Source: a virus (lineage: Duplodnaviria; Heunggongvirae; Uroviricota; Caudoviricetes). Taken from it: a stretch of DNA of 47,814 nucleotides. Position numbers and translations under genes: made by a program. The notes under the pieces were generated by a model. The model saw only the letters and a list, made by a program, of their open reading frames with translations. It made no database searches and was not told the origin of the DNA. Location: the IMG/VR virus record IMGVR_UViG_3300029305_003072, one strand, 5' to 3'. Numbering within the stretch: position 1 is the stretch's first letter; each line of letters starts with the position of its first letter. This document shows positions 3-45,847 of the stretch, piece by piece.

Positions 3-3000
3 CCTATCGAATACACTGTAAATACAGAAGAGGATGAACAAGAAAATAAGGAAAACGCTAATAAAACAGCAAGTAGAAATGCAACTTTAACTTCTTATTA
101 TCCAATTCCATACAGTGCTGGTAATTACTATATTGAAGGTGCAACAACTATTGTTTATGATAGTATGGGAAGTAATCCTTCTTATTATAAAGACCCATAT
201 AAGATTTTTACTTGTAATACAAATGAAAACCTTGCAGACAAGAAGATTATTCGTGCAGGTGTGGAATCTGATAAGCCAAAATATGATATCCTGTGGCGAA
301 TTGTTTATTATAAAAAAGATAAAGATGGTAAGGTTGTAAAACTAGATAAAAATATCCATGCTGATTATAATATTTGTCGTAGTTATATGCCCACTTTAAA
401 TGAGAAAAATGGTTTAAATGCATCAAATATGTACATGGGCAATATGGATTGTTGGTGCGCAGTTGAGTGTTGGTTAAAAGACCTTGAAACTGCTACTTAT
501 GATACTAAATATTCTTTAATTTGGGTTCAACCTATTTTTATCTTACAAAATCGCTATCCGTCTCCAATGCTGAACTCTTGGGATGGAAGCTTGACAATTG
601 ACAAAAAAAATGGTACAATATTATCATCATTAGTAGGTGCTGGTCGAAAAACTCGTGATAATACTTTTGAAGGTGTACTCATGGGAGATATCGAAGGCAG
701 TGCCGGAATCGTAAATGCTGGTAATAAATCTGGTTTAGGTATTTATGGTTTTAATGATGGCGCTCAAAGTTTTGGTTTTAATGTCGATGGTACAGGTTTT
801 ATTGGTAAATCTGGTAGAGGTAGAATTTTATTTAATGGTAATGAAGGTATTATTCAAAGCGCTTCTTATACAGCAAATGAAGATAAACCTTATGGTATGA
901 AACTTGACTTTGATGATGGTTGGCTTGAAATGCGAGGCGGCCTAGAGTATGATAATGATGATTGGGCAAATGAGGTTGTCAATCATTATAAGGAAATCCT
1001 TGCCGCAAAAGTATATAAAGTTGATGAAAATACTCAAGCATTAGTAGCAACTACAAAATATATTATTGATAGAGATATAATGGATTTGGATGTTCAAGAA
1101 GCATTGCTTGAAAAGATTAAGTATGATGCTGCTCATCAAGCAAATATGTATATTGAGGGTCGAGCCATTGCCAAAAAAGCTAAAGATAACGGAGAGATAA
1201 CTCAAGAAGAATATCAAAAGTTATTTGATGAGCTTTATGCTAAAGAGCAAGAGAAAAAATACTATGCAATGACTACATTAAAAACTGCTAGTATTGGAAG
1301 AGGTTTCTCTATTAATGACAAAGATTATGAATTAACCATAGAACAATATAATGCTATTTTAAATGAATTAGATGAATATATTTTAGCAGAAACTTATGAT
1401 GGTGAATTAAAAACTGATGCTGAAGGTAGAAAATTTAATTATAAGAGTAGATATGGTACTCTTTCTAAAGCTTTACAAGAGTTTGAGGCTCAAGGTCATA
1501 AAGTTCTTGGAGATTCAGAAGAAGCTAGTGATGTTACTTTAACTGAAGTTGAGGTTACAAATCAAAGTCATATTCGTTTAGATGTTAAATCTCCTTATTT
1601 CTATATTATTAGCGAATAGGGTAAACGTATTTTAAATATTGGTGATGGCACTGGATTTGACTTTGAAGATTATCCATATTTACAATATTCAATTGAAAAG
1701 TTCCAGCGAGATAAAGATGGAACAATTCTTTTAGTTAATTTAACTGATGAAACTGGTTCAACTATTAAAATTGAAGATATAGATGAGGCTAAAGAATTAT
1801 TAAATTCTGAATGTTCAATTTTAAGAAGTGATGCTTATAATCGTTTTTAGATAAAAAAGAGCATTACTCAAAAAGATTATGATAATATTTGTTTAGATAT
1901 TGAGGATTATCGTACTAAGAAATTAGCATATTTAAATACTTGGACAGAAGAAAATGCTGAAACTTTTATTGATAAGACTTATGAAGTTGAATATATTCAA
2001 AAAACTGGTTTTATTGGTACTGGTACACAAAAAACGAATTGGCTTGAACCTTATGGAAGAAACCTTTCTAAAGGTTATTATTTAAAATCTAATGATTTTA
2101 CTTATACTGCTTTTAGTAAAGAGGATGGTATTGCAAGCGGTCAAGGTTCAGGCTTTTTACTTGATTTAACAAATGGACACATTAATGCAGCAAATTTAAG
2201 CATTGCTTCAAAAAATGTATTTATTGATTCTGGTAAAAATGCTGACCCATTTTTTATTATTAAAGATAATGATGGATGTAATTTAATTTATGCTGGACAA
2301 TAGGATTTTTATATTCAATCTCATACATATTCAAGATATGCTCTTGGAGATAGGCTAACTGATGATAATGGTAAACAATATTATTATCCAGGTATGAAAA
2401 TTGATACTGATGGAAATAATTTTTTATTTGATATTAGAGGTAATTATCAATCAATAGTAAATATTAATAAGGATGAATTTTTCCTGCAAACTGATAATTA
2501 TAAAATTCGAGAATATATTACTATAACAAAGTGTTATAATCAAGATTATAGTATGAGTTTTGATATACAGGTCGGTAAAGCTGAAAAAGGACATATTATT
2601 TATACTGCACCAAATTTTAATAAAAAAAGTGAAAATGTTACGACTGAAGAACATACTTCTATTACTTTATATGAAAGTAAAAAAATTGATGGAATAATGT
2701 GGTATAAAATTAACACTGAGCAATGGATACCAGCATTATCTTTTGAATCGATTGAGGTAAATGATGAAGGTATTGGTACTGGTATAACTTATTTAAACCA
2801 AATTATTTATAGCGATTCTGATTATAATTCTATTAAAGTTGGTTTTACCAAAGATTCTCATGTTGCAGGTGTTAATATTTAGGCAACTAGAGCAGTTGAT
2901 GGAGTAGAGTGGTATGCTATTGAAGTACTTGAAGTTGAACATTGGCTACCTGATTATTCTATTAAAACTGGTTCTTATGGTTCTGGTATTAGATTGGATT

Positions 3001-4061
3001 TGTAGGGTGGCTATATTGATGCTTATGATTTTATTATTCGAGGTGAATCTAGCACAGACCCCACTGCAGGTTCTTATTTATTATTAGATAGTTAGACTCC
3101 GCAATTTGTAGTTCATTTAACTACTCCAGACAGTGATGGTATAATTGATTTAGATTTAATTAAAATTTCTCCAGATGAATTTTATTTACATTCTGCAAAT
3201 TGGTTAGAAACTACTACTCAAGTCACCACTTAGCGGACAGCTAAGATGGACGGCGGCTGGAATATTAGAAGCGGTCCTGGTATGGATTATTCTATTATCG
3301 GTTATTCTTCAAGTGGAAAAAGAGTGGTTGTATATGAAAAGCAGGGAGATTGGTACTGTATCGGAGAAGACTAGTGGATTTGGTATGAAGGTTTAACTGA
3401 TTTTCAAGAAGGTGGAACCGCAAATAAAACTTATGGCACTGGCATGGAAATTGATTTAAATGATGGTCGTATTACTGCATACAATGCCAATAATGCGGGT
3501 AAAGAATTATTAATTAATTCATTACATGATACATATCCAATTTAGCTAGGAGAAATTGGAGATTATAATTTCCAAATTGGTTGGGATGGTAGTTTAAAGG
3601 GCGGTAGTATTTATGGTTGGAGTATTGATGCAAGTGGTACTGCTACGTTTAATCGTTTGAATGCTAATGGTGGTGTTTTAAGTTGGATGTCTATCGGCAG
3701 TGCTAATATTTATGATGTTGATATTACTTCTGGCACAATTGCAGGTATGGACTTCACTACTGGAGGCATTACTGCAGGAGATTGGAATTTTAGTTCTAAT
3801 GGATTAAGTCATAATGGAAAAGCAATGGAAAAGAAAACTTATGATTCAGTGCGCTATATGTCTTTATGGACAAAAAAAATACCAGTAAGTGTTAGCGGTA
3901 GTTGCTCAATCGAAATTGATGGAGCTACTTATTATGGCTCATGCTCTGCTAGTGGAAATACTACTGAAGATGTAGGTTATAGAATTGGTTATGTAAAAAT
4001 GATTTATAATGGATATGGAGAAGAAGGTCAAGAGTCTGCAGTTGTATTTACACCAGCATAA
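3..4061 (+). CDS. Large tail-tip/baseplate-associated structural protein with three SH3-like cell-wall-binding modules (5' partial, at least 1352 aa, TAG=Gln)
   Basis: The frame is open from base 3 to TAA at 4059-4061 except for 9 in-frame TAG (1617, 1848, 2301, 2880, 3003, 3093, 3231, 3372, 3543). It joins track ORFs 165-1619, 2394-2882 and 3657-4061. An SH3b-type segment WNIRSGPGMDYSIIG...GDWYCIGED*WIW lies at about 3258-3390. G-rich beta repeats and tail-region context support the structural call. Confidence 0.8.
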
Positions 4062-4070
4062 GGAGGATTT

Positions 4071-4439
4071 ATGACAAATTTAGAAATTTTAAATTTTAAT
4101 GAATTATATAAACAAAATTTTCAAGAATTTGATGAATTATTACCAGCAAAAATTTTGTTTTATATTTATAAAAATTTATCATTAATTGAAATATCATTAC
4201 ATCATATTGAAAATACTAGAAATAGTATTATTCGTAAATATGGTTTAATTGATGAATCAAAAGATACTATTCAAATTCCTCCAGAATTAGTAAATGAAGC
4301 TAATAAGGAATTAGAAGAAGTTTTAAAAATGGAATAGGAAATTAATTTTTTTTTAATTCCTCTTTCATGGTTTGATAATATCAATCTTAATCCAAAGCAT
4401 ATGAAATTATTATGGATTATGATTGATGAAAATAAATAA
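4071..4439 (+). CDS. Hypothetical 122-aa protein, AT-rich paralog of the next gene (possible tail assembly chaperone)
   Basis: RBS AGGAGG. One TAG at 4335, and reading continues to TAA at 4437-4439. It aligns end to end with 4454-4822 (KME*EINF vs NIEQEVDI). Confidence 0.8.
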
Positions 4440-4453
4440 AGGAGAAAAAGGTT

Positions 4454-4858: not shown

Positions 4859-4883
4859 CTTATTGCAGAGAGAAAGGAGATTA

Positions 4884-7847
4884 ATGATGTCAACTACTAA
4901 GTTATACCCTCCTTATGTGGATGCCGCAGTTCCTGCGCAGTTGGTTCCCGATGAAAGTACATCAGAAACAACTGTAACACTTACTATTCCATTTCAATTA
5001 AATAAGGCAGTAAGTTGGGTAGATTTAAAATCAAAAAATAATATCGCTTTGATTTTGAAAACGGTATCAACAGGAAAAGTTTTATTAGATTGTTATAAAG
5101 GAAACGTTTTAACTCATTATGAACCTACTGGAACACCTGCCGCAGAATTTGAAATTCCTAAAACTACTTTTAATCCTGTTGCAGGATAGTTTTATAAAGC
5201 TCAAATCGCTTTCATAGATTCTGATGATACTATTGGATATTTTTCAGATGTGACTATTGTAAAATTTACTGCAATTCCTGTTATAGGTATTGCCGATTTA
5301 GCAAGTGGAACAAATGCTGCTCAATATGTTTATACAGGTACATTTTCAACTACTGATGTTACTGAAAAAGTATACTCATATGAATTTAATATTTATGATT
5401 GTGAAACTGGTATTTTGCATGACACAAGCGGAGTTATGATTCATAATAGTAGCACAGATGTTGAACGAGGAAAATCTTTTGACACTTGGACATCTTATAA
5501 AACTTTAATTAATGAGCGTCAATATTCTATATGTTATAAAATCACTACTATTAATGGTTTAGTGATGGAAACTCCAGCTTATGGAATAATGGCAGTTGAA
5601 ACTTTAGATTTAGTTTCTAGAAACACAGAATTTATTGCAACATTATATAGTGATGATGCTTATATTCATGTTCATATTATGCCAAAAGATATTGATGCAA
5701 ATATTAAAGCAATTACTGGTAATTTTATTTTAGTTAGAGCATCCAGTGAAGATGGATTTGGTAGCTGGAATGAAATTTATCGTTTCACTTTGATTAATAA
5801 CTATCCTTTAATGACACTGTGGAAAGATTTTACGGTGCAACAAGGATATTCATATAAATATGCTGTACAAGCCTATAATTCTAAAGGTGTTTATTCTAAT
5901 CGATTAGAATGTAAATATTATGCTAGTGAATTTGATGAGCGCAATGATGACATTAACCGTTAGAATTGGAACGCAGAAGCAAAAGACCCTATTGAAAATA
6001 CTAACTTAAATTGGAATTATTTACAAGAAATTGATGGGTCTCCAACTCAAAGCGGATTGCCAGTAGATTTTGAAGATGCTTTTCTTTATGATGGAAAACG
6101 CCAATTGAGAATTAGATATAATCCAAAAATTAGTTCTTTTAAATCAACTGTGCTTGAAACTAAAATGGATACTATTGGAGGTAAATATCCTTTTATTTTC
6201 CGTAACGGAAATGTTGAATATAAAGAATTCCCAATTTCTGGTTTAATTACAATGATTAGCGATGAAAATGCTTTATTTATGGAGTATTCCAAAGAGAATC
6301 CAAAAGCTCGTCAGTACAGTACACATCCGCCATATGGTAATGATAATGCGGATTGGTGGGTCAGCCGAACTGGTATGACGGAGTATGAAGTTCGTAAGAC
6401 CCAAGAAAAAGAGTTAAGTGGTTCTCCCACAGCATTAACCGCTAGCAACTTCCGCAAAGAGCGTGAATTTAAAATGGAAGTGTTGGATTGGTTAACAAAT
6501 GGACAACCAAAGCTATTCCGTTCTCCAAGTGAAGGTAATTTTATTGTTCGTTTAATGAATACATCATTAACTCCAAATGATTAGCTTGGACGATTATTAC
6601 ATACTTTCCAATGTACTGCATATGAAATTGCGGAATGTAATTATGAAAATTTGGAAAAATATAAATTTATTCATGCTCTCGATACTAGTTATTAGGAATT
6701 GAAATTTAAAATGCTTGATTGCAATAATACTTTTGCTGACATTCATAATAGACAAATTATTATTGAGGGTGGTGCTTATTACTTTGCAGTAATAGACCAA
6801 TGGAGTTATTTGGCATTGAGAATTACTTATGTAAATGGTACATCACAAGTTATTGATGTTGGTAACTCTACTGGACAATATTTGTTTGACAGAGAAGCAT
6901 TAAAAAATAACCCAATTGTTTCAGTAACTTATCAAGAAGGTGCGCCAGATGTTGGTAGTAAAATTCTTTATGGATATTATGATACATCAGATATTGCTTT
7001 CTCTTTGATTGCAAGTGTTACAAGAGAAACAGTAGTAGACCAAATTATCGGTCATCCGCAAACTTCTTACCGTATAGATAGTTTTAAAATTAATTATGTT
7101 CCAACTATTTTAAATGGCATTGGATATAGAGACTTGGCTACAGATTTACAAAAGGTTTATGGCGAAGATGAAATTCCTCGTTGTACTCTTGGTAAATTTT
7201 ATTACTTAAAAGCTGAACCCAGAGAGATTACTTTCGTTTATAAAAAAGAAAATAAATATTATGAAACTTCAAAATGTGATTATGAGGTTCGTCAATGGGA
7301 TGATACTTATATTTATAAAGTTTTCGAAGAAAGTGATGGCACTTGGGAACCTACGAATCAATATAGTGGACGTCCTTCAAATAATATCTTATTACCAGAG
7401 CCAAGTTATCTCATTAAATTAAATGCAAAACCCAATAATGGTATTGACCCTGCTCAAGAAGAGTTTGTGGATTTAAGTTTAAAGGGCGGTAGCGGAGGTA
7501 ATGCTCCTATTACTACTGGACGATATGAACTTTATTTTGATTTGGATAAAGTAGAAAGTTTATATATTGGCTCAGGAGTTGTATGTGAAATTTGTTATAA
7601 TTTAAATACAATTCATTATGAAGCTGAAGATAATATTCAATATAGTGAATTGGTTGATAGATATAATACTTGGCAAAATCAGCAACGTCAATATAAGAGT
7701 ATGTTAAAAGCTGGATATAGTAGATTTAGTGCTGATGTCGAACGCGCTCGTATGAATATGGAACAAAGTTATCATTAGTATTTAAATCAGTTAGAATATA
7801 TTCTAAATAAGTTGCAAATGGATGGTGAGACTTATTATGCTTTATGA
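4884..7847 (+). CDS. Tail/baseplate structural protein (987 aa, TAG=Gln)
   Basis: RBS AAAGGAG before ATG 4884. There are 5 in-frame TAG (5187, 5961, 6582, 6693, 7776) and it ends at TGA 7845-7847. It joins four track ORFs, is Ig/FN3-like and beta-rich, and overlaps the next gene's start. Confidence 0.75.
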
Positions 7848-10479
7848 TAAAGAATTTTTGAAAGAATTAGACAAAACAAAAAATAAAATTGTCTATGCAA
7901 AAGTTACTGCATTAACAGTAGAGGAGTCCCCCATTGAAAGCATTGAAGGTCGTGTAACCCAGGGCTCCATCAACTTAGATGGAGCTTCTGCGGTTCGTCG
8001 TTCTTGTTCTTTATCAATTGTAGCAGAGAATTTTGATTATTCAGATTATTTATGGGGAATGAATACAAAATTTAAGTTAGAAGTTGGTTTACAAAATGAT
8101 ATAAATGATAATTTTCCCAAGATTATTTGGTTTAACCAGGGAATTTATATCATAACATCTTTTAATACATCTAGAACTACCAATAACTTTACTATTACTA
8201 TTCAAGGAAAAGATAAGATGTGTCTTTTGAATGGAGAAGTAAGTGGTACTATTGGAGTACAAACAGATTTTGGTACAATTGAAGAAGAAGATAATGAAGG
8301 AACTTGGACTATTAGACAAATTCCTATTCCTGAAATTATCCGTAATATGGTTCATGCATATGGCGGAGAGCCTTATCATAATATTATTATTAAAGATTTG
8401 GATACTTTAGGCTTAGAGCTTTTAGAATATCGATATGAAAATATGCCTTTAGTTATGTATCGTAAAGCTGAAAGTAATACATATACAAATATTGCTTTTT
8501 TAGATAGTGATATGTATTTATATGCTAATAAAAATGATGTCGGAAATGTAGATAGACGAGTATATTTAAAAGATATTCCCGATACACATTTTGAACAATT
8601 AATTGATGGTATTCATACAAGTGACCCTATTGTATATTATGATGATGATAAAGTTGGTTATAAATTAACTAAGCTTCAATACGGAGATACCGCAGGTTAT
8701 CGAACAACTGAATTAACATATGCTGGAGACTTGATTGCAAACGTAGGTGAATCAATTACTTCAGTTCTTGATAAAATTAAAAATATGCTTGTTGAATTTG
8801 AATATTTTTATGATGTTGATGGACGTTTTATATTCCAGAAGAAACAATCTTATACTCAGACTCTATGGTCTCCAAGTGGTGATGGAGAAGAGGGAATCAC
8901 AGAAGGTTTGTTATGGAGTGATGCAGCCGCATATACTTTTAGTGGCAGCGAATTAATCACTGGTTTTAATAATAATCCTAATCTTTTGAATTTAAGAAAT
9001 GATTTTTCAATTTGGGGTGAGCGCACAGGCATTAGCGGCGCGCAGATTCCCATTCATTTAAGATATGCCATTGATGAAAAACCAACTGCTTATACAACTA
9101 TTTCTTTAACTGATTTTGATAAGAATGAAGTGGATGAATATAATTTAAAATATGGAACTAATTTAAATAATAATCCTACTTCAATTACTTATTCTATTCA
9201 CCCAAATATAAGTAGAGCTAAGAATTATGTTTATGTAACCGATTGGCGAGAAGTATTGTTCCAAATGGCAAAAGATTATTTTAGATATAATACTTTAAGT
9301 GATTTTGAAATTCGTGTGCGCGAAGCTAATCCAACGCTCTATCCCTCTGGCCGCACAGGCTATGAACAATATTATACTGATATTCAAGTTTGCTGGCGTT
9401 AGCTATATAATCCTGAATTACGAAATAAAATTGCGGATTATACAGAAGAAGTTGCGGCATTAACGAATGAAGTGACTCAATTAGATAAAGAAATTAAAGA
9501 TATTGAGAATAGAATTATTGAGTTGAATAATCAATTAAATACTGCTACAACTCAGAGTTCAATTGATAGTATTGTTTTATCAATTTTATCAGAGCAACAA
9601 TCTCGCACTGATAAAAAAGCATTAAAATCTCAAAAAGAATATCTTATCGAACAAAAATAGGAAAGCTTAGATTCTTATAATGAAGATATTTTAAATTATT
9701 ATCAAGCTCAAGAATTAATAGAATTAGATGTAAATTTATTTACTACTCAATTCCCCTTATCTGACAGTTAGATTACTATTGATATTTTAGATAGATTTAG
9801 AGTTCCAAAAAATTTAATTGATGAACTTTTAGATGAGAAAACCGGTGAACCAATTGCTATTAAAGTTAGTGATATCCTTTACTTTAAAGAAGATGATAGT
9901 TATTTTTCTGTTATTAATAGTTTTGATGATTATGTAATAATTGCATATTATGATAAATCTCGTCTACATTGGCATAAAAATGTTTTTGAGAATCCTGGCA
10001 ATTTAAATTATTGGTTTGACTTTTTAGATACCGCAGGAGAGCTAAGCCAATATAGCGTACGAGCTATTGGAGCACGGACGAAAGCTATTAATGAAAATAC
10101 CGTAAAATCCATTTATTTTAGGGAAACTCCACCAGTTATTTTCGCACCAGATATTACTGATGACGAAAAAATGAGTGGTTATAAATATATTCAAATTCCA
10201 GAATTTGAAATGGATAAAATGTTTAGTATTAGTGCGCAAGGTAAATCCGCAAAAGAGCGCTTAGATGAACTTCTTTACAATCATGGTTATTGTACAGAAA
10301 GTGCAACTATTACAACAATTCCAGTATATTATTTACAACCAAACACTCGTATTAAAGTATCTGATGAAAAAACTAAAATTGATGGAGAATACATTGTAAG
10401 TAAACTTACAATTCCTTTAGCACATAACGGAACTATGTAGTTAACTACAACGAAAGCTGCATAGACACTATTCTTTTAA
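7837..10479 (+). CDS. Putative baseplate hub / tail-associated protein (880 aa, TAG=Gln)
   Basis: ATG 7837 with GGTGAG upstream, 5 TAG (9400, 9658, 9769, 10438, 10462), and TAA at 10477. The architecture resembles hub-type proteins (GSINLDGASAVRRSCSL, YFYDVDGRFIFQ, C-terminal PVYYLQPNTRI...GEYIVSKLTIPL) with a coiled-coil insert at about 9420-9700. Confidence 0.65.
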
Positions 10480-10494: not shown

Positions 10495-10830
10495 ATGAAA
10501 AAGATATATCAATATCGTTATTATGGTAATTCTGATAAGAATTATCCGAAAACTCTAAATGCAGTACAATTAACCAATGGTGAAATTTTTAATCAAACCA
10601 GTAAGGGTTCCATTACTCATTTGGGTTTACAAGCTTCTCCAGGGACTACATTTTTTTTGAATCGTTGTGATAATCCAATTCAAATTGGAAAAACTGGCAT
10701 CTACGAGATAGATGTTACTGGTTATGGTTATATTACAAGCATTATGTTTAGTGATGATACACTAGCATTAGTAAATGAAGATAATGGAATTATTATTGAT
10801 ATTATATATGAAGGAGGTACTATCGAATGA
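10495..10830 (+). CDS. Hypothetical virion-region protein (111 aa)
   Basis: RBS GAGGAGAGG, TAG-free ORF ending in TGA, ATGA overlap with the next gene. Confidence 0.75.
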   Translation: MKKIYQYRYYGNSDKNYPKTLNAVQLTNGEIFNQTSKGSITHLGLQASPGTTFFLNRCDNPIQIGKTGIYEIDVTGYGYITSIMFSDDTLALVNEDNGIIIDIIYEGGTIE

Positions 10831-12014
10831 GCAGCTTTTATGGTTAGATGCGATGGCAAGATTTTCAATAGTTCTTCTTAAATTTCACTCTTGAGAATAA
10901 ACATTTCTCAATTGATAATATTTTTAACACTTCCCCTCCATATGAAAATCAAATGACAATTGATTCGACTATGAAGGCATATATTCAACCCAATGAAGAT
11001 TTTGCCACATTTAGATTTAATGCAGCAAATCATTGGATTAAATTTGCGCCAATTGATTCTTAGGGGGATGAAAAAACAACTTATGTTGGTTTTTCAATTT
11101 TTCATAATAAACCAAGCTTGGAAAACACCTATACTCTCCCAATTTTTGAAATAACAGTTCCACCTCAAGGCGCAACAATTGAAACCCTTGAGAGTGGAGA
11201 ATGCTTTAAGATTGCTTGTCCTGCCTTTGATTAGGCAGGACATTTCGTAGGTGAGGACCATATAGAGCCAACCTATTTTAAAATGCCAGAGCAATTGATT
11301 CAAATTAATCAATCTGGTAATGACTTAGTTCTAACAGCTGAAAAGAAATTCCATTTTGCGAACACAGATGGTTTAATTGAACTATTATTAAATGACGCAA
11401 AAAATAAATTAACTTTTTAGCATAAAACAAACTTCAATGACAACGAAGAGCCTGACTTTACTCCATTTTTATACGAAGGTAGTAAAGATGGTACTCAATA
11501 TGAAGTTGAAATTGTATTGCAACCTGGTGATTTTATTTCAACTTATCATACGGTTTACGATAAAGCGGGTCATTTAACTACATTAGAAAAAATTTATTAT
11601 CAATTACCAATTAGTGAAGTTGATTCTCGTATTGAAGTATTAGAAAATACTGTTGCTGAAATTCAAGGCGACCTTGAAAATATGGCAGGAGATATTGAGA
11701 CTTTAACTGAAGATTTAGAAGATGCTATAAAAGATGTACAAAGAGCAAATGAAATGGTTGGTACTGATGCTGAGTTTGGTAGAGGAGACCAAGCCGCAAA
11801 AGAAGATTCTTTTAATGCTTGGGTTAAGGCTTTTACAGGAACAACTCAAAATTATCAATCTTTATCAGGAGCTCTTTCTGCAGTACTTGAAAAATTATCT
11901 TCTAATAATACTGATTTAGATAATGAAATGCGTAACTTCTATTCTCGTATTATTGCTATTGAAGATTATTTAGATGGTAAGTTTACCGATTATGAGCCTC
12001 CAAAGAGAAGCTAA
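10827..12014 (+). CDS. Fibre-like structural protein with C-terminal coiled coil (395 aa, TAG=Gln)
   Basis: The start overlaps the previous stop (ATGA), with RBS GGAGG. There are 5 TAG (10845, 10869, 11061, 11232, 11418). An internal repeat (LESGECF..AFD*AGHF / LQPGDFI..VYDKAGHL) and a heptad region are visible. The track shows only the 11517-12014 part. Confidence 0.75.
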
Positions 12015-16832: not shown

Positions 16833-16835
16833 TTT

Positions 16836-16886
16836 GAGGACAAAAGGTATTAAGAAGATTATTTCGATTTTTAATTAAAAATAGAG
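16836..16886 (+). promoter_or_regulatory. Recurrent upstream motif copy 1 (GAGGAC-N39-ATAGAG), putative phage late promoter
   Basis: Matches five other intergenic copies in spacing and contains AGATTA. Promoter function is inferred. Confidence 0.4.
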
Positions 16887-16894
16887 GATAATCT

Positions 16895-16938
16895 AATAGG
16901 TGGGAAGAAGATTATTCTTCTCACCTATTTTTTTGTTT
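16895..16938 (+). terminator. Intrinsic terminator-like hairpin in the leader of the giant gene
   Basis: AATAGGTGGGAAGAA-gatta-TTCTTCTCACCTATT followed by a T-run. Confidence 0.7.
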
Positions 16939-16965
16939 ATAAAGGAAAGAAAGGAGTTTAAATAA

Positions 16966-25017: not shown

Positions 25018-25033
25018 TAAAGGAGGATAAAAA

Positions 25034-25243: not shown

Positions 25244-25278
25244 TTTAATTATTTAATTAAATTATCAAAATAATAGAG
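25230..25278 (+). promoter_or_regulatory. Recurrent upstream motif copy 2 (CTGGAC-N37-ATAGAG)
   Basis: Overlaps the last codons of the upstream gene and is followed immediately by the hairpin GAGGGAGAG-agtaat-CTCTCCCTC (25276-25299). Confidence 0.4.
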
Positions 25279-25329
25279 GGAGAGAGTAATCTCTCCCTCG
25301 CAAATTTAAAGAAAGGATGATATTTAGAA

Positions 25330-27261: not shown

Positions 27262-27282
27262 TAACTTGAAAGGAGAGGTAAA

Positions 27283-33961: not shown

Positions 33962-36388
33962 ATGAGTTTATTAATATGGTTACCATTACATGGTAATTTA
34001 GAAAACTATGGTTCTTCTCCAATAAAATTTAGTTTAAATACTACTGGTGGCGGTGTTGCAGCTGCCACCAGTGGTGGAAAAACAGATATGCGCTGTTATC
34101 AACGAACAGCTATTAATACAGTTTCTCATATTACTAGTGATTCCACAATTGATTTAAATAAAGATTTTACTATGGCATGTTGGTGTTATCCAACCACTCC
34201 TGGTAATGCTACTTCTGCAAATGGAATTCTAACGAATCATAATCATTCTCATAATAGTGATAAAGGTAGTGGTTCAGGAATTACTTTAAAATATAGTGGT
34301 AATACAACTTGTTATATGAGTTGTAATACTTCTTCTTCTACTGGAAGAACATATTATTCATATTATGGAACTACAAACATCTATGGAGCTTGGCATCACT
34401 TATGTTTAACCTATAAGAAATCTACTAAAACTTATCGTTTATTTGTAGATGGTATTTGCGAAAAGGAATTTACTTGCGAGAATGTATCTGCTGCAAATAA
34501 ATTTAATATATTTGATTGGTCTGTCGGGCATTCAAATAATGGGTCATATAGACCCGCCTGTAAAATTAATGATGTGCGAGTATATGATGAATGTTTATCC
34601 AAAAGAGAAGTGAAATTATTAAGTCAAGGTTTAGTTTTACATTATAAATTAGATGGCGGAAATGCGAATAATTTATTAACTAATTCTTATACGATTGGAA
34701 ATAGACAAACCTCTTTTGATAAGGTCTATGGATTTCCTGTCTGTAGTGCAGATAATAGTGCAGGCACTGGATATAAAGATTTTGCTTCTTGGGGAGGACA
34801 CTCTGTTTCTATAAATGAAGTATATACAGCAAGTTTCTTTGCTAAATCATCTACTTCAAGTACTTTAACTATGTACTTTTATAATAATACATCTGGCGTG
34901 GTTCAAGTTTCTAATATTAAATCATCTGAAGGACATAATAAAAGCGGCAGTGATGGCAATTGTCCTCTATCATTAACTCCTCAATGGAAAAAATATACAG
35001 TAACTTGGACTTTTGCAGCAAGCGGAACAACTACAAATAAAACCTTGCTATTTAGACTTGCGGCAGGTGGTAAATGTGATATAGCTTTACCAAAATTAGA
35101 AAAAGGTTCGATTGCTACCCCTTATTGCCCAGCATTAAGTGAAACATTTTTTAATGCTGCTGATGATTGTAGTGGATATGGTCGTAATGGCACAACAGTT
35201 GGTAATATTACTTTTAGCTCTGATACTCCACGCTATGCGGCAAGCTCTGTGTTTGATGGTTCAACCACAGGCATTAATTTACCAATTAAAGATTTAATGA
35301 AAGCAGTATTGAGTGATAAGTGTACTATTAATTTTTGGGTAAAAGAATCAAATACATCAAGTAGAAGTATTTACTTTGGCGGTTATAGTGGTAGTAATTT
35401 TAATATTGAACAAAATGTAACATCTTTCCGAGTATATTGGAATGGTAGTCCAGATTTATCAGTAGGTACAATTACTAATAACGAATGGGCTATGTGGACT
35501 GTTACAACAGATATTGCTACTGGTATTAAAATATATAAAAATGCAACTTTAGTAAAAACTCATACGGGTGCTCTTACTAATATTGCTTCAAGTTTTACAA
35601 GAGATTTTAATATTGGTAAAGATAGTAGAACTGATGATACAATGATGGAAGGTAAAATGTCAGATTTTAGAATTTATGCTTCTGTATTGTCTGCTACTGA
35701 TATTAAAGACTTATATCAAACTGCAGCGTCAATAACTAAAGAGGGTTCTGTATAGGCTTATGAATTTATTGAAGAGCCTGATAGTTTTGATATTAAAATG
35801 ACTAAATAGGGTATGTTAAAAGCTGCTGACATTTCTGAAATTGGATATATTGGCGGTATGAAAGTTAAAGTGCTATCCGACAATAGTGCTTGGGCACGTA
35901 TTCATTGGCTTGACGTGACTACGGATAAAACTTGGTTTACTGCTAGCGAAGTTGCCTTTTGCAATTAGGCTAATCGTTTTAGTCGAATGGGTTTAGTAGA
36001 CCATTTTAAAGTAGATGGTAAATATGAGTTTATGTTAACTTATCCGTCTTTGTCAAATTCTTTATATAATAGATGGACACAAACAAGCTCTCCAAATGCA
36101 AGTACTGTAACTGGTTTTACTGCTATTACAACAGCATGGAATAATCATAATGCAGGCATTCGTAAACATGGTTCAGCTTGCGTCTATAACTGTGACACTG
36201 GCTCAACTTGGTTTGCTCCTATTGGACAGAAATCTGCTTGGGATAGTACTAAATTTATTCCTGCCGCAGATGGCACTTCACAAACTGAAACAGAATTGTG
36301 GGTAAGAATTGATACATTACCCAACTTAACAAAAACTAGTATGCTTGATAAAGAATATTTACAAGCATTTAAGATATATGAAATTTAA
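33962..36388 (+). CDS. LamG/concanavalin-like multidomain receptor-binding protein, cassette 2 (808 aa, TAG=Gln)
   Basis: 3 TAG (35753, 35807, 35966). It is a full-length paralog of 28886-31303 (MSLLIWLPL, INDVRVYD, KLEKGSIATPY, DCSGYG, SDFRIYA, NRWTQTSSPN). Confidence 0.8.
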
Positions 36389-36407: not shown

Positions 36408-39400
36408 ATGGCACAAGTAAATGATTTACTCGTCCTTGGAAAAGCTAATTTTTTAAATGAGATAACTTCTTCTCAATTATTAAGAGCCTTTGGCGGTATT
36501 GCAGTAGATAGTTCAACTGAAGAATCTACATCTTTACCTTATTTTTTAGGTATTAAAGCTTTTGCTGATGGTGGCAATGTTGTTTGGTCTAGTCCCACGA
36601 ATACAGCTAATGTAATTAGACTTAATGCTTCTGGAACTTGGCCTATTAGTATTAGTGGTCTTGCCGCAAAAGCAACCGCTGATGCAAATGGAAGTACTAT
36701 CACTTCTACTTATGCGAAGTTAAAATCTTATAATGATATGATTCATTCTACAAATGAATATACATTTGCATCTCCGGCTTATTCTGGAGCCATTTGGATT
36801 AACTATCGAACTGCAAGTGGAGCAACTGATGGTAATATTACTACTTATAATTTTGGTAATGGTAAAGGCGGAACTGCAGGAGTTACTCTTGTGGCAACAA
36901 CTTTTAATGGCAATGCTACCAGCGCTAATTATGCAACTTCTGCTGGTAATGCAAACACTTTAGATAATATTGATTCTACTGGATTCTTAAGATATTACAA
37001 TAGTAATACTGCAATATCATCTACTGAAGTTGTTAATACTCCATCTTATGTACATACGGTTAGTACAACAGGTGGAAATATTACAACATCTGTGAAACCC
37101 TCTGGCATGAACAATGCATGGGGACTTATTCACTTACATACTCATACTGGTAATTACGCTACCTAGTTAGGTTTCGGTGGCACAACTGGAAATTTATATA
37201 TGCGCAATGCTTATAATTCTGCAACTTTTGGTAGTTGGAAAACTATTCTTGATTCTGGAAACTGGACAAGCATTGTCGATGGAAGATATTTAAAATTATC
37301 AGGCGGAACAATGACTGGCTTAGTGTCATATAAAACCACAAATTATACTTCTACTCCAATGGCAATATATGATGACGGAACAAATTATGGACATAGCTTA
37401 GTTATTGGTGCTGGCGGCACTACTTATATTGGAGCTGGTGAGGCTGCTAGTACTTTATATTCAACAAAACTAAAAGTTACTTCTACTGAGGATTTAATTC
37501 TCGGTGCAGACAGTAATATTAGATTTCATACGAATGCAGATAATGCAACCACCACGAATGGAGTAACTCTTAATACCTCCAATTATTTTTATCCATAGAC
37601 AACTAACACTGGTAGTGTTGGTACTTCTGGTAATAAATGGGGTTCCATGTATGCCACAACCTTTTATGGAGCTTTAAGTGGTAATGCTACAACAGCTAGT
37701 GCTTTAACTCCGATTACTACAAATGATTTAGCTTCTAGTAGTACGACTAAAAGACGCATTTGGTTTTGTTATGATAATAATACAACAGGTCGACCTGCTT
37801 ATGATGATAGATTTACAATTCAAACTTCTACTGGAACATTATTTGCTCCAATTTTTAGTGGTAATTTAAGTGGTAATGCAACAACAGCAACTACTGCCAA
37901 TGCCTTAGCAAGTACTGGTTATGGTAATGGTAATTTTACTTGGTTTCAAACTTCTGGAGAGTTCGCTGGCAATAGCGGATGGGCATCTTATTTAGTTTCT
38001 AATCATGGAGATGGCTCTAGTTATTATCATTAGATTATTGCTATACCATTTTGGGATCCTCCAAAATATCGCCGCATGGAGGGTAATACTAGTACCGTTA
38101 AAGGCTGGTATGATTTTATTACTGATGAAAATTATACTACCAAGTTAGATGCTCGATATTACACCGAAGCAGAAGCCGATAGCCGTTTTGTAAATGTAAC
38201 TGGCGATTCCATGAGTGGAACGTTAAGTTGGAGCGGAAATATTTCAAGTTTAAATTTCCGCACTGGACATAGTGATTATGATGGTGTAATTAGTTATCAA
38301 ACAAGTGGTAATGAAGCTATGTTATTTACTACTAAAAACGTAGTTACGAGTTTTATGTTTGTTAATGGTGAAGACACTATTACTAATATGGCTGCTGATA
38401 GATGGACTAAAATAACTCCCGGTTTACAAATTAAAAATAATTGTGTTGCGATTGGTAAATTAATTGCTAATGGTAGTACTCCCAGTTATAAACTAGAAGT
38501 AGCTGGAATGACATATTCTTCAGGTCGTTACTTATCTGAAACAGTACCTTCTTCTTGGATTGATGGTTAGCGTTATAATAACGGTGCTTATAATGTAAAT
38601 ACTTATTCTAATGATGGCAGCTATAATCCTTGGATACGTGCAACTAATAGTCATGCTAATGTTGCTAAGTGGTTTAGTTTTGGTACATTAGGCAAACAAT
38701 TTTATTGGATTGGTTCTACTACGAGTCGTACTGAAAATAGTTATGATAAAGGTATGTCATTTAATGTTGAATCTGGTTTATTATATGCTCCAATTGTTGG
38801 TGGCGATAGAATTTATACTGGCTATGATGCTGGAGTAACTGGCTCTGTATCTTGTTCTAATTGGTTCCGTTCAAGTGGCGCAACAGGTTGGTATAATGCT
38901 TCTTATGGTAATCATTTATACCCAAATACTGTAACAGGTTATGGCGGTTTTATGATGTATGGTAATGTTAGAGGTGGATATGAAGGCATTATTCTTGGTA
39001 ATAGTACTAGTTATATGACATTGATGTCAAGTGACCCTCATCAAGGATTGTATAATGAAGCAAAAGGACGTTGGATTATTTATTATAATAAAACTAATAA
39101 TCAAACTTCTGTAAATGGCGCTTAGACTTCAGCAACAGCTTTTCCATTTACTATTTTTGGTGCAACTTATATTGATGGTCGTTTGGTTGTAAAAGGCAAT
39201 GGTTCTTCTTATAATGAAGGTATTCGTGTTTTACCTGCATCAAATGGATGGTCTAACTTATTCTTCTCTGGAACGAATACTGTAGAAGGCACTCATGATG
39301 GCGGTTGGTTAATCGGTCGTAGGGGAACAGCTGGAAGTACTTATGGTGCAGTTGGAGATTTCTGTATTGAAAATAATAATAGTGTTGGAAGTAATTTAAC

Positions 39401-39935
39401 GTTAACTAAAGCTGGTATTTTAGTTAATATTGGACCAATCTTTGGCTATAGATATAAACAAACTAGTAATGGCGCTGCTTTTATGTGGGATAAACCTGGT
39501 AGTAATTACACTGGTATGGGCGCTAATGATTCTAGTGACACTATTCAATTTAGAGCTTGCGATATCGCTGGTAATTGGGTAGATTATAAACAACATTGGA
39601 ATTTCTATGGTGATTTATTTGCTTATGGCGCAAGATTTGCAAATAGAGGTACTTCAACATCTACTTCTGCTTATAGTGATTCAGCAGTTGAAATTCGTGA
39701 ATACGGTTTTGGCGGCGCTCAATCTGATACTTGGGGAGTTGCTCCTCGTTTAAGTTTCCATTGGAGTGGACGTGTTGCAGCGCAAATAGGTCTTGCTTCT
39801 AACGGTAAATTATATATCAATAATAATACTCAAGGAAGTACTACATTCTTACAAATTGTCGGTATGACTGGCTATGGTACTGCAGCCCCATCTGGTGCAG
39901 CTCCTGCTGGTTCAGTTTATTTTAAATATAGTTAA
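36408..39935 (+). CDS. Long tail fibre protein, cassette 3 (1175 aa, TAG=Gln)
   Basis: 5 TAG (37164, 37596, 38031, 38568, 39123) join six track ORFs. The N-terminus MAQVNDLLVLG resembles MAQLRDLIVNG of 31694, with repeated GNATTA, WKTILDSGN and YLKLSGGTMTG motifs. Confidence 0.8.
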
Positions 39936-40171: not shown

Positions 40172-40216
40172 GGGATGGATAATGAAAATTTTTTGTATGG
40201 AAAGGAGACCTTACAT

Positions 40217-40657
40217 ATGTATTCCAACTATAATTATTATCCACAGCAACCTACACAGACTCCACAAGTCACCCAATAGCAATCAATGTACTAGATGCCC
40301 TATTTACGACAGGCGCCGCCGCAAACAGGACTGAAAGGCCGTTTGGTTAGTTCATTGGAAGAGGCCCGTGCAACCTCTATTGACTTCGATGGTTCTGTAT
40401 TCTATTTTCCAGATTTGGCGAACAAACGAATCTACACAAAACAAATAAATATGGATGGTACCGCTACATTATGTATGTATGAATTAAGGGAATTACCCAT
40501 TGAAAAAGAAGAGAGCGCTGTATTGCCATCCGTTGAGAAATTTGTAACGAGAGAAGAGTTTGAGCGGGTCTTGGAGTATATTAAATCACTTCAAAAGCCA
40601 ACCGAGCCGGCCGCACCCGCCCCGCAGAAACAGAAAGTAGAAATTTTATCATTCTAA
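40217..40657 (+). CDS. Six-gene module gene 1: hypothetical, Gln/Pro/Tyr-rich N-terminus (146 aa, TAG=Gln)
   Basis: RBS AAAGGAG before ATG 40217. Two TAG (40277, 40292) sit inside a Q-rich tract (VTQ*QSMY*MPY). The core reads GRLVSSLEEARA..IDFDGS.FYFPD..KRIY.KQ. Confidence 0.8.
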
Positions 40658-40667
40658 GGAGGTATGA

Positions 40668-40922
40668 ATGATGTATCCAGTAGACCCAAATGTTTTAATT
40701 CAAATGATTAAATCCGGGCGGAATCCTCAACAGTTGATGTTATCAATTTTACAAGGACAAGCCTATAACAATCCCCTCGGAAAAAATCTCCTAAATTTAG
40801 CTCAACAAGGTCGAACCGACGAACTAGAGAAAGTAGTTCGTAATATTTACGCTCAATAGGGCGGTTCTAATTTCGACCAGGAGTTCGAAGCCTTTAAACG
40901 TGCATTAGGCTATCAAAATTAA
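40668..40922 (+). CDS. Six-gene module gene 2: hypothetical helical protein (84 aa, TAG=Gln)
   Basis: RBS AAGGAGG, TAG at 40857, and reading continues to TAA at 40920-40922. Confidence 0.75.
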
Positions 40923-42104: not shown

Positions 42105-42118
42105 AAGGAGGAATAAAT

Positions 42119-43062: not shown

Positions 43063-43109
43063 AAAAAGGGTCGTATATGATTTATTCATATACGACCCTT
43101 TATTTTTTT
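43061..43109. terminator. Bidirectional intrinsic terminator where the two transcription directions converge
   Basis: A-run, then GGGTCGTATATGA-tttat-TCATATACGACCC, then a T-run, between convergent stops at 43062 and 43108. Confidence 0.85.
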
Positions 43110-43707
43110 ATGTGCAAATAGCCCACCCAGTAGATGTACCATCTTTGTTAATATATGGAATAGCAACTTTCCATCCATTAGCAGTTCCATCAACATTGAC
43201 ATATGGTATTGCACTCTTCCATCCATTGGCAGTTCCATCAATATTAATGCGAACTAATCCTCCACCATTAATCACTGTACCTCCATAAGTAGAGCTATCT
43301 CCTCGGTTTCTGATAATAACAATAGTAGGATTTGATTTACGAACAAAATGAAATCTAAAAGTTACTGTTGACCCAGCGGCTACATATACTCCTCCAAATG
43401 TAAAAGTTTTTTGTTCCGTATTATAATAGTTTCCTCCGCTAGTTTTATTGCTTACAGTAATTGTATTGGACGTATGCGATGTTCCGTTAGAATCAGTAAC
43501 AGTTACATAAACATCATATGCATATCCATATCCAGTAACAGTATCTCCCTAATTGTATGTTCCATTACCTGAAGCAAGACCTATTCTGCATGCAGTTATT
43601 AGTTGAGGTGTAGAACCAGTATTTTTATATTTGAGTAAATTTCTACTATAAGTAGCATCTATGCCCTAATAAGAAAAACTCCAATCACTATGAGTACTCC
43701 ATCCCAT
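43108..43707 (-). CDS. Small fibre-associated/virion protein with C-terminal 16-aa repeats (199 aa, TAG=Gln); missing from the ORF track
   Basis: RBS AAGGAG, ATG at 43707, 2 TAG (codons 14 and 53), TAA at 43108. The C-terminus reads INIDGTANGWKSAIPY-VNVDGTANGWKVAIPY-INKDGTSTGW. Confidence 0.75.
43117..43248 (-). repeat. 48-bp tandem repeat (two full copies plus one partial) encoding the 16-aa repeat
   Basis: 43153-43200 and 43201-43248 are near-identical, and 43117-43152 is a diverged partial copy. Confidence 0.8.
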
Positions 43708-44282: not shown

Positions 44283-44333
44283 CTCTATTGGATAATAAAA
44301 GAAGTGAAAGAGGGATTATCTAGTTAAGACCAA
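44283..44333 (-). promoter_or_regulatory. Recurrent upstream motif copy 6 (TTGGTC-N39-ATAGAG), minus strand
   Basis: Overlaps the last codons of the RuvC-like gene, precedes the holin-like gene, and contains AGATAA. Confidence 0.45.
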
Positions 44334-44809
44334 TCGAATACTTCGACTTTATTATTTACATAGTGAGCACCAATACAAATAGCATCACACTCATCTTGAG
44401 TAGGTTTTACACCATAAGTTTTTTCAACCCAAGCCTATGCGGCTTTCTTCTGGGCTGGACGGTCTTTACCCTTAATACCAAGAGTAGATTTCCAAACGGT
44501 TGAAAGAACTGCGGTTCGAGGCATCTTTAATGTTACAAATAATTCATATAAAACACCAAAGACTTCTGCTAATGCTTTAAAAGTTTGAACATTGTTTGCA
44601 ACATTGCCTTGAAGCTAAATATCTTCAAAAACAACTTCATCAATATCATATTCATTAATGAGTTGATTTACTTTACTCCGAATAAAGTGAAGTCTATCTC
44701 CAACATCAGAATGGTCAGCAGTAAACTTACCATATTTTAGAAGCTTACCATCTTCAAATATGGCCCAGCCGCTTGTTCGGCTTGCCTAGTCTAATGCTAA
44801 AAGACGCAT
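44324..44809 (-). CDS. ruvC: RuvC-like Holliday junction resolvase (161 aa, TAG=Gln); missing from the ORF track
   Basis: ATG overlaps the dut stop (TAATG). The sequence MRLLALD*ASRTSGWAIF...VVFEDI*LQ...WK..LG...K...QDECDAICIG gives the RNase H-fold acidic set D7, E62 and D/D. There are 3 TAG (codons 8, 65, 125). Confidence 0.85.
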
Positions 44810-45348
44810 TACTTAGATGTGGAGCCAAAACCGCCAGTGCGCTCTCCACCTGCGACGTCATCTTCAGTAACGCCATAGGGAAGAATAATAGCCTGACCAA
44901 TGGCCTCTCCCTTTTTAATCTGAATATTAAATGGAGATAGATTATAAATCTGGAAGAAAATTTCTCCTTCATTATCGGGATTGTTATAATAGTCAGCATC
45001 AATAACGCCGATACCATTACCCATCATTAACCAATATTTTAGAGGAGAAGAGCTACGAACACTCAACTGTAACCAAGTAGTCGGGTCAAGTTTGCATTTC
45101 ATTCCAGTAGAAACAAGAGTTGGCTTGAAACCAGTCTCTTTTGTAAATTTAGACATAAGGTCCATAGTTACGAACTCATCATCGCCTACAGGCCATAATT
45201 CTTTAGCTTCTGCAACCATTTGCCATACAGAAGGAATTATATAATCCTCTGCGGCAACCATATCATATCCTGCGGACTGTGCAGTCTTTCTGACCGGCAT
45301 AGCGATGTCCACATCTATATATTTAGAAACTTTTTCAAAAATAGCCAT
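44809..45348 (-). CDS. dut: Trimeric dUTPase
   Basis: All five motifs are present: SAGYDM, LVSTG, RSS, GVIDADYY/GQAI and RTGGFGST. Confidence 0.95.
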   Translation of the reverse strand: MAIFEKVSKYIDVDIAMPVRKTAQSAGYDMVAAEDYIIPSVWQMVAEAKELWPVGDDEFVTMDLMSKFTKETGFKPTLVSTGMKCKLDPTTWLQLSVRSSSPLKYWLMMGNGIGVIDADYYNNPDNEGEIFFQIYNLSPFNIQIKKGEAIGQAIILPYGVTEDDVAGGERTGGFGSTSK

Positions 45349-45353
45349 TTTTA

Positions 45354-45596
45354 TTAACCCCTTTCATAAGACACAACAAACATATCTTCGGGGTCTTTTT
45401 CTGCAGTAAACTGCTTAGTAGCTTGAACTACCATATATTCTTCAACCACTTGACCCTTAGCCTTAATCTGCTTTACTTTATAGCTAAAGCCAACTAAATC
45501 AAAACAAGGGTCATTTAAAAGCTCTTCATGTAAAGCTTCAACTGCGGCCTCATCGGGCACTCTATAAGTATCAACAGCTTTTAACAAATATCTCAT
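45354..45596 (-). CDS. Hypothetical protein (80 aa)
   Basis: Intact ORF in the operon, with its start overlapping the upstream stop (ATGA). Confidence 0.75.
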   Translation of the reverse strand: MRYLLKAVDTYRVPDEAAVEALHEELLNDPCFDLVGFSYKVKQIKAKGQVVEEYMVVQATKQFTAEKDPEDMFVVSYERG

Positions 45597-45847
45597 TTTA
45601 TTACCTCTACTTTATAATTATATTCACTGACCATTAACATATCAAGTAACATATAGCACATATTAATATTGCCAGATATTTTAATATTATTTATTAAGTA
45701 TTTTTCACATAGCAATATAATATCTTCTGTTATTTGCTAAATATTATTGGTATTATTAGTTTTATCCATAATTAAAATTTCATTTTCATATATACAAGTT
45801 TGGTAATTATTATTATCTATGAAAAAAATATATAAATATTTATCCAT
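45593..45847 (-). CDS. Hypothetical AT-rich paralog of 45847-46125 (84 aa, TAG=Gln); missing from the ORF track
   Basis: TAATG overlap at the start and ATGA overlap at the end, with TAG at codon 37. It shares IxxLC...IxGN and the terminal VEVIK with its neighbour. Confidence 0.7.

What the first reader, a model, noticed from the sequence alone, without database searches (positions are those of the whole stretch)
3..45847. Genome uses TAG as glutamine (stop-codon recoding) across 16 genes
Seen: about 60 in-frame TAG codons interrupt otherwise continuous frames, and reading through each ends at TAA or TGA next to the following RBS or an overlapped start. No gene ends at TAG. Internal alignments put Gln at TAG: KME*EINF vs NIEQEVDI (4071/4454 paralogs), YAT*LGF vs WITQIYQ (fibre repeat in 36408 vs 31694), GED*WIW vs NTEQWIP (SH3 repeats in gene 1), and RNI*LE and LALD*AS at positions where homologous families usually have Q. 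Several TAG follow CAA directly or sit in Q-rich tracts. Established: TAG-to-Gln (table 15) recoding is known in some gut phages. Inference: the phage must supply a CUA-anticodon tRNA and counter host RF1, and neither is in this window.
Basis: partly seen in the sequence, partly recalled or inferred. Interest (0 to 1): 0.8.

Follow-up and report, generated by a model that had tools for sequence, protein, structure and literature searches.

The report
Gut phage reads TAG as glutamine
This window is the tail, lysis and nucleotide-metabolism part of an uncultivated gut phage that uses the stop codon TAG as a glutamine codon, a real but already described phage trick, and the tRNA that must do the reading is not on the piece of genome we hold.

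Summary
With TAG read through, the window has 60 in-frame TAGs in 17 genes. All 35 modelled genes end at TAA (27) or TGA (8). The chance that the frames stay open after the TAGs is about 1e-228.

The Gln reading is supported by codons, not only by database translations:
- At relatives' in-frame TAGs the window has CAA 251, CAG 99 and TAG 89 of 1611.
- Gln fits the substitution profile best, by more than 600 log-likelihood units.
- Standard-code relatives have Q in 9/9 and 22/22 at the two conserved TAG columns.
- Cultured Enterococcus phage EF1 has Q at all three TAG columns of the RuvC-like gene.

An independent assembly is 100% identical over 14.2 kb, so the TAGs are not assembly errors.

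The phage belongs to a large clade related to phAss-1 ("Caudoviricetes code 15 clade"). That clade holds both recoded and standard-code members. This scan also reported TAG-to-Gln before on related DNA.

No tRNA, release-factor domain or GlnRS-type domain is in the 105.8-kb contig, which is about 56% complete. None is in the collinear 132-kb nearest relative either. Synteny with recoded relatives that carry tRNA(CUA) places the tRNA island in the unsampled part.

Verdict: a new member of a known kind, of modest interest.

The parts
3..4061 (+). 3' part (1352 codons) of a 2547-codon tail-associated gene with an SH3_3 domain. It has 9 in-frame TAGs in the window and 17 in the whole gene.
4071..4439 (+). 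122-aa gene, paralogue of 4454-4822, only 19% G+C. It has 1 TAG at codon 89.
   Evidence: Q in 15/15 relatives at that column, and 9/9 in standard-code relatives.
4863..7847 (+). 994-aa tail protein with 5 TAGs.
   Evidence: Codon 109 aligns with Q 33 and TAG 22 of 70 relatives, and Q 22/22 in standard-code relatives.
7822..10479 (+). 885-aa tail protein (phrog_32343 / phrog_1887 tail protein) with 5 TAGs. Two lie at codons 873 and 881 of 885.
   Evidence: The homologue consensus runs on past both C-terminal TAGs.
10827..12014 (+). 395-aa gene with 5 TAGs.
13576..15093 (+). 505-aa gene with 3 TAGs.
15111..27870 (+). TAG-free block of five genes (573, 2683, 69, 643 and 195 aa). The 2683-aa gene carries a C-terminal LRR_5 match. 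The block is richer in G+C and uses CAG freely.
27989..28873 (+). 294-aa gene with 3 TAGs.
28886..31303 (+). 805-aa fibre-type protein (Laminin_G_3, CBM_4_9) with 8 TAGs, including a TAG-TAG doublet at codons 345-346.
31694..33946 (+). 750-aa fibre-type protein with 4 TAGs.
33962..36388 (+). 808-aa Laminin_G_3 protein with 3 TAGs.
36408..39935 (+). 1175-aa fibre-type protein with 5 TAGs.
40175..40922 (+). Two small genes (160 aa with 2 TAGs, 84 aa with 1 TAG) ahead of a TAG-free group at 40943-43062.
43108..43707 (-). 199-aa gene with 2 TAGs.
44324..44809 (-). RuvC-like Holliday-junction resolvase, 161 aa, with 3 TAGs at codons 8, 65 and 125.
   Evidence: Relatives have only TAG or Q at the three columns. 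Enterococcus phage EF1 has Q at all three.
45593..45847 (-). 84-aa gene, 18% G+C, with 1 TAG.
44809..47814 (-). Nucleotide-metabolism genes: dUTPase (44809-45348), NrdG-type radical-SAM activase (46652-47134) and the start of NrdD (47185 onward). These named genes carry no TAG; the only TAG in this span is in the 84-aa gene at 45593-45847.

Best explanation
The window comes from a large siphovirus-type gut phage, expected size about 190 kb. It is related to phAss-1 and to Enterococcus phage EF1-like phages. In it TAG is a sense codon for glutamine and is never used as a stop.

The TAG codons sit mainly in AT-rich tail, fibre and lysis-region genes and in some DNA-metabolism genes. In those genes they largely take the place of CAG. 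G+C-richer genes, and the early genes driven by host-type promoters, have none.

Shown: the frames, the Gln identity, the absence of TAG stops and the uneven distribution.

Inferred: decoding is done by a phage-encoded tRNA with anticodon CUA that the host charges with Gln. I put this at about 65%. It would be expressed from a tRNA island that lies in the unsampled part of the genome, left of the contig's start. Suppression must be nearly complete, because one upstream gene has 51 TAGs and one window gene has two TAGs in tandem. How host RF1 is outcompeted is unknown; no release-factor gene is present.
For: Frames:
- 60 in-frame TAGs, with frames open for 5903 codons after them (log10 P -228).
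- Coverage by ORFs of 300 aa or more rises from 0.41 to 0.78.

Residue identity:
- At relatives' TAGs the window has Q in 350 of 1522 non-TAG cases, against a background Q share of 3%.
- Q is the best of 20 residues in both directions: -4149 against -4750 for K, and -1414 against -1535 for S.
- Standard-code relatives give Q 9/9 and 22/22 at the conserved columns.
- EF1 has Q at 3 of 3 RuvC columns and phAss-1 has Q at one.
- The paralogue pair puts TAG opposite Q.

Not an artefact:
- L012, from another assembly, is 100% identical over 14,183 bp.
- L006 and L007, from other samples at 96-98% identity, keep 19 of 28 TAGs and have CAG or CAA at four others.

No TAG stops.

TAG replaces CAG: CAG/CAA is 28/209 in TAG-using genes and 86/121 in TAG-free genes, Fisher 6e-13.

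Need for efficient decoding: the 3115-codon tape-measure-position gene has 51 TAGs (position by synteny with PF10145-bearing genes). There is also a TAG-TAG doublet.

Suppressor in the clade:
- G003 and G005 carry tRNA(CUA).
- phAss-1 has three (PMC10607447).
- In G003 the tRNA island lies 15-34 kb beyond the homologue of this contig's leftmost gene. That maps to DNA we do not hold.
Against: No tRNA of any kind was found by ARAGORN, with or without introns, or by Rfam, even at E <= 1. This holds for the whole 105.8-kb contig, for positions 60-132 kb of the collinear relative G001 and for the 5.4 kb left of the contig in relative L116. Together these cover about 169 kb of an expected 190 kb or so.

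Babkin et al. also report recoded relatives without a detectable Sup-CTA gene (PMC10607447).

Most of the window's own TAGs lie in variable columns, so only a minority of individual sites show Q directly.

No peptide or RNA data were available.
Confidence: 0.88

Rival explanations
1. TAG is read as Gln, but the decoding tRNA is not encoded by the phage. It would come from the host, a co-resident element or an RNA that standard tRNA models do not recognise.
For: There are zero tRNA matches, even at Rfam E <= 1, across the contig, G001 60-132 kb and L116. G001 as a whole (132 kb) has 0 tRNAs. PMC10607447 and the Borges et al. preprint (10.1101/2021.08.26.457843) both note recoded phages without a detected suppressor.
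Against: The contig is about 56% complete and G001 about 68%. Roughly 20 kb is unsampled. Synteny with G003, G004 and G005 puts the tRNA island there. No standard-code host is known to carry an efficient Gln amber suppressor (general knowledge).
Confidence: 0.15
2. TAG is a sense codon for a residue other than Gln, such as Glu, Lys/pyrrolysine or Ser.
For: K, E and S are the next-best fits in the likelihood test. Many TAG columns hold S, E, T or K in relatives. G005's CUA tRNA has a long extra arm like class II tRNAs.
Against: Q wins by more than 600 log-likelihood units in one direction and 120 in the other. All conserved TAG columns are Q-only in standard-code relatives. The loop of G005's extra arm, CUUUGAC, equals the tRNA-Gln(UUG) anticodon loop.
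Confidence: 0.04
3. TAG is only leaky. Both truncated and read-through products are made, and truncation is the main outcome.
For: No RF1 countermeasure and no suppressor were found in the contig.
Against: There are 51 TAGs in one essential-looking 3115-codon gene and a TAG-TAG doublet. TAG is never used as the final stop. Homologues continue through every tested TAG column.
Confidence: 0.05
4. The TAGs are real stops: assembly errors, pseudogenes or short separate genes.
For: None beyond the table-11 reading.
Against: An independent assembly is identical. The frames are conserved in more than 80 relatives. Log10 P of open frames by chance is -228.
Confidence: 0.01

Closest known systems
phAss-1 and related phages (proposed Phassvirus and its wider monophyletic group; NCBI 'Caudoviricetes code 15 clade'; Babkin et al. 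2023, PMC10607447)
   Same: Both are human-gut siphovirus-type genomes with TAG read as Gln in virion genes and some DNA-metabolism genes. Both have a tape-measure gene of about 3100 codons (3149 aa in phAss-1, 3115 here). The portal is 37% identical and the RuvC-like gene is homologous, with Q or TAG at the same column. No dedicated aminoacyl-tRNA synthetase is present in either.
   Different: The relationship is distant (portal 37%; no nucleotide match). phAss-1 has 36 tRNAs including three Sup-CTA. This contig has none, but it is incomplete. The expected genome is larger, about 190 kb against 136 kb.
Code-15 crAss-like phages with proteomic proof of TAG read as Gln (Peters et al. 2022, PMC9523058; Yutin et al. 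2021, PMC7886860)
   Same: The reassignment is the same (TAG to Gln), is concentrated in late genes, and occurs in the gut habitat.
   Different: The lineage is different. None of the 88 phage records matching the portal is named as a crAss-like phage, and the named ones are phages of Bacillota such as Enterococcus, Bacillus, Lactococcus and Clostridioides. No proteomic data exist for this phage.
Alternatively coded 'gemstone' clades such as Agate (Borges et al., bioRxiv 10.1101/2021.08.26.457843)
   Same: These are large phages of about 150-200 kb. Recoded and standard-code members are mixed within one clade: here 57 recoded and 28 standard-code among 85 relatives. Recoding is concentrated in structural and lysis genes, and some members lack a detected suppressor tRNA or release factor.
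   Different: Membership in a named gemstone clade could not be tested, because no reference sequences were at hand.
Enterococcus phage EF1 (MF001358), a cultured standard-code relative
   Same: The portal (29% identity) and the RuvC-like resolvase are homologous, and the neighbouring dUTPase is shared.
   Different: EF1 uses the standard code and has Q where this phage has TAG.

Membership tests
Phages with genetic code 15 (TAG read as Gln) | Many in-frame TAGs inside conserved genes, with frames that continue to TAA or TGA | tested here: met
   60 TAGs in 17 genes; log10 P -228
Phages with genetic code 15 (TAG read as Gln) | Gln at the TAG columns of standard-code homologues | tested here: met
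   Q 9/9 and 22/22; EF1 Q at 3/3; Gln is the best of 20 residues
Phages with genetic code 15 (TAG read as Gln) | TAG not used as a terminator | tested here: met
   27 TAA and 8 TGA stops, no TAG stop. Early genes with good ribosome-binding sites also end at TAA or TGA.
Phages with genetic code 15 (TAG read as Gln) | Phage-encoded suppressor tRNA with anticodon CUA (common, not universal) | tested here: inconclusive
   None in the 105.8-kb contig or in G001, but the contig is about 56% complete. Relatives G003 and G005 have one.
Phages with genetic code 15 (TAG read as Gln) | Peptides with Gln at TAG | not testable with these tools
   No proteomic data.
phAss-1-related monophyletic group (Babkin 2023) | Homologous signature proteins (portal and others) and a very long tape-measure gene | tested here: met
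   Portal 37% identical over 88% of its length, E 4e-93. 3115-codon gene at the tape-measure position. No phylogeny was built.
phAss-1-related monophyletic group (Babkin 2023) | Genus-level similarity to Phassvirus (about 80% nucleotide identity or more) | tested here: not met
   No megablast match to any phage record.
Crassvirales | crAss-type portal and structural module | tested here: not met
   None of the 88 records matching the portal is named as a crAss-like phage; the named ones infect Bacillota.

The most novel reading that the evidence does not exclude
This lineage (the contig plus its nearest relative G001) may carry no tRNA genes at all. It would then read about 200 TAG codons as Gln using something other than a phage-encoded canonical tRNA. 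Candidates are a host or co-resident suppressor, or a non-canonical RNA. That would be a recoded phage whose code depends on an external factor.
Probability: 0.12. Interest if true: 0.7.

Novelty: new member of a known kind. Interest (0 to 1): 0.3.

Why it matters
In practice, this contig and hundreds of relatives are mis-annotated under table 11. Tail, fibre and tape-measure genes fall apart into fragments, so host-range and structural predictions need code 15.

Biologically, the window adds a well-documented case outside the crAss-like phages. It also shows a sharp split between two gene classes: TAG-using, CAG-poor genes and TAG-free, CAG-rich genes. The clade holds standard-code and recoded members side by side, which is useful for studying how a stop codon is captured.

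The reassignment itself, its Gln identity and its bias to late genes are already published. This scan has reported the same thing before on related DNA.

Tried and rejected
- Close-relative searches of viral contigs with two single proteins found nothing. An alignment query was needed.
- Database proteins could not serve as independent evidence. Their gene caller had already translated TAG as Q ('with_TAG=Q'). I therefore went to codons and to standard-code relatives.
- TGA or TAA as the recoded stop was rejected. The apparent TGA-sense gain at genome 5-15 kb is an effect of the G+C-richer early region, where all frames are open.
- Extending the contig to find the tRNA island failed:
  - The look-up with the NrdG-type protein returned only short contigs.
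  - The exact end pattern was absent from viral contigs.
  - The metagenome scan gave a relative reaching 5.4 kb further left, with no tRNA.
  - The leftmost protein has no identical database entry.
  - A protein from L116 is not on record.
- The RF-1 domain (PF00472) and the GlnRS/GluRS catalytic domain (PF00749) are absent from G000, G001, G003, G004 and G005.
- No solved structure matches the RuvC-like protein by sequence.
- Pfam gave nothing for the PHROG-labelled 'sigma factor' or the head genes.
- Earlier scan notes labelled 'same genome' give coordinates that cannot lie on this 105.8-kb contig. I treated them as notes on related phages, not as evidence for this one.
Full report
**What the window is.** The window is bases 53406-101219 of a single 105,768-bp virus record. 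The record has 37% G+C and no terminal repeat. CheckV rates it about 56% complete. Its right end cuts a DnaE-type polymerase gene.

The window holds several gene groups:
- the last part of a 2547-codon tail gene;
- a run of tail and fibre genes with SH3_3, Laminin_G_3 and CBM_4_9 domains, plus a 2683-aa protein with an LRR_5 match;
- a small group of possible lysis-region genes;
- on the minus strand, a RuvC-like resolvase, dUTPase, an NrdG-type activase and NrdD.

**The observation.** Under table 11 the plus strand breaks into many same-frame pieces. With TAG as sense they fuse. My model has 60 in-frame TAGs in 17 genes, and every one of the 35 genes ends at TAA or TGA. TAA/TGA occur every 11.7 codons in the off-frames, yet 5903 codons following the TAGs stay open (log10 P -228). 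Reading TGA or TAA through gives no comparable gain.

The 4071/4454 paralogue alignment is significant and puts Q opposite TAG. The fibre-repeat pair is only collinear with a nearby HSP. The SH3-repeat pair was not reproduced.

**Not an artefact.** A contig from a different ENA assembly is 100% identical over window 23962-38144, which covers 23 TAG positions. Contigs from other samples at 96-98% nucleotide identity keep 19 of 28 comparable TAGs and show CAG or CAA at four others.

**Which residue.** The public protein databases already hold full-length homologues, but these were translated with TAG as Q. They are therefore circular evidence. I compared codons instead, using 85 related loci from ENA and IMG/VR.
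- At relatives' in-frame TAGs the window has CAA 251, CAG 99 and TAG 89 of 1611. The next codons are ACT, GAA and GAT.
- The background share of Q is 3%.
- Substitution tables taken from the same alignments give Gln as the best of 20 residues in both directions. The margins are more than 600 and 120 log-likelihood units. These counts are not phylogenetically independent, but the ranking is clear.
- 28 relatives have no in-frame TAG at all and so use the standard code. At the two conserved TAG columns they have Q in 9/9 and 22/22.
- In the RuvC-like gene, relatives have only TAG or Q at the three TAG columns. Cultured Enterococcus phage EF1 has Q at all three.

Most other TAGs lie in variable columns, where S, E, T, K and D also occur. 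That is what is expected for surface Gln positions.

**Distribution.** TAG use is uneven. A 12.7-kb block (15111-27870, 4163 codons, including the 2683-aa gene) has none. Neither do the named nucleotide-metabolism genes (dUTPase, NrdG-type activase, NrdD) or the head genes upstream of the window.

TAG-using genes are AT-richer and almost lack CAG: 28 CAG against 209 CAA. TAG-free genes have 86 against 121 (Fisher 6e-13). TAG therefore looks like the replacement of CAG in one gene class. The TAG-free state of the giant gene is not conserved, since a 70%-identical relative has 9 TAGs in the first 1206 codons.

Outside the window, genome 1-23 kb is an early region. It holds small minus-strand genes behind TTGACA-17-TATAAT promoters, has 41-47% G+C, and TAG is almost absent on the coding strand (observed/expected 0.16). 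Its well-supported genes end at TAA or TGA. This fits the published picture of a code change that takes effect during infection (bioRxiv 10.1101/2021.08.26.457843).

**Mechanism.**
- No tRNA is found in the contig by ARAGORN, with or without introns, or by Rfam at gathering score or at E <= 1.
- No RF-1 domain and no GlnRS/GluRS-type catalytic domain is present.
- The nearest IMG/VR relative, G001 (132 kb), is collinear with the contig and runs 63 kb past its right end. It also has no tRNA.
- A relative reaching 5.4 kb past the left end has none either.
- Together these cover about 169 kb of an expected 190 kb or so.

More distant recoded relatives do carry tRNA(CUA). G003 has a 75-nt one among 39 tRNAs. 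G005 has a 98-nt one. phAss-1 has three (PMC10607447).

In G003 the homologue of this contig's leftmost gene lies 15-34 kb from the tRNA island and 55 kb from the tail gene. The spacing in this contig is 60 kb. The island therefore maps to DNA left of the contig's start, which we do not hold.

I conclude, as an inference at about 65%, that the suppressor is phage-encoded and simply not sampled. The alternative of an external or non-canonical decoder stays open at about 12-15%.

Suppression must be close to complete. The tape-measure-position gene has 51 TAGs and gene 28886-31303 has a TAG-TAG doublet.

**Comparison and novelty.** The closest named phage is phAss-1, with a portal 37% identical. 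NCBI files it under a 'Caudoviricetes code 15 clade'. Babkin et al. describe its wider group as a mix of recoded and standard-code genomes, some without a detectable Sup-CTA gene. TAG read as Gln has proteomic proof in crAss-like phages (PMC9523058). The late-gene bias is described by Borges et al.

This scan has also reported TAG read as Gln on related DNA. The coordinates of those notes do not fit this contig, so I used them only as leads.

The finding is therefore correct, but it is a new member of a known kind.

Noticed in passing
window 15111-27870: A 12.7-kb run of five genes, including a 2683-aa protein with a C-terminal LRR_5 match, has no TAG at all. The genes on both sides carry them. 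The block is richer in G+C and uses CAG freely. A 70%-identical relative has TAGs in its copy, so the TAG-free state is specific to this lineage.
   Followed up: partly
window 29918-29923 (codons 345-346 of gene 28886-31303): Two in-frame TAG codons stand in tandem (context DGQH**SLT). This argues for efficient decoding rather than leaky read-through.
   Followed up: no
window 4071-4439 and 45593-45847: Two small genes have only 18-19% G+C, far below their neighbours. The first is a diverged paralogue of the 34% G+C gene next to it.
   Followed up: no
L001 (genome 1-20000) and genome 20001-23400, outside the window: This is an early region of about 50 small minus-strand genes. They have repeated TTGACA-17-TATAAT promoters and AGAAAGGAA-type ribosome-binding sites, and 41-47% G+C. 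TAG is nearly absent on the coding strand in all frames (observed/expected 0.16).
   Followed up: partly
L003 (genome 40351-49698), outside the window: A 3115-codon gene at the tape-measure position has 51 in-frame TAGs, the densest use in the contig.
   Followed up: partly
L002:3573-4622 (genome 23573-24625), outside the window: The first plus-strand gene after the early region matches PHROG 5767, labelled sigma factor (E 2e-51), and has 4 in-frame TAGs. If it is a late sigma factor, its own synthesis would depend on the code change. Pfam gave no match.
   Followed up: partly
L106:5450-5548 (relative G005): This is a 98-nt tRNA with anticodon CUA. It has an extra hairpin arm whose 7-nt loop, CUUUGAC, equals the anticodon loop of tRNA-Gln(UUG) in the same clade. 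Earlier notes of this scan describe the same kind of tRNA.
   Followed up: partly
L015-L094 (IMG/VR relatives): Of 85 relatives of the tail module, 28 have no in-frame TAG and 57 have 3 to more than 100. Standard-code and recoded members are mixed within one clade of 130-197-kb genomes.
   Followed up: partly
L006:19100-22643: In the 98%-identical relative, the gene that corresponds to the 2683-aa gene is called as two ORFs (1108 aa and 1572 aa), separated by a TAA or TGA stop.
   Followed up: no
L105:5296-6306, L108:3209-3559 and L108:7863-8010 (relatives G004, G002): ARAGORN's intron mode calls several tRNA genes with long insertions (73 to 926 nt) in the tRNA islands of relatives.
   Followed up: no
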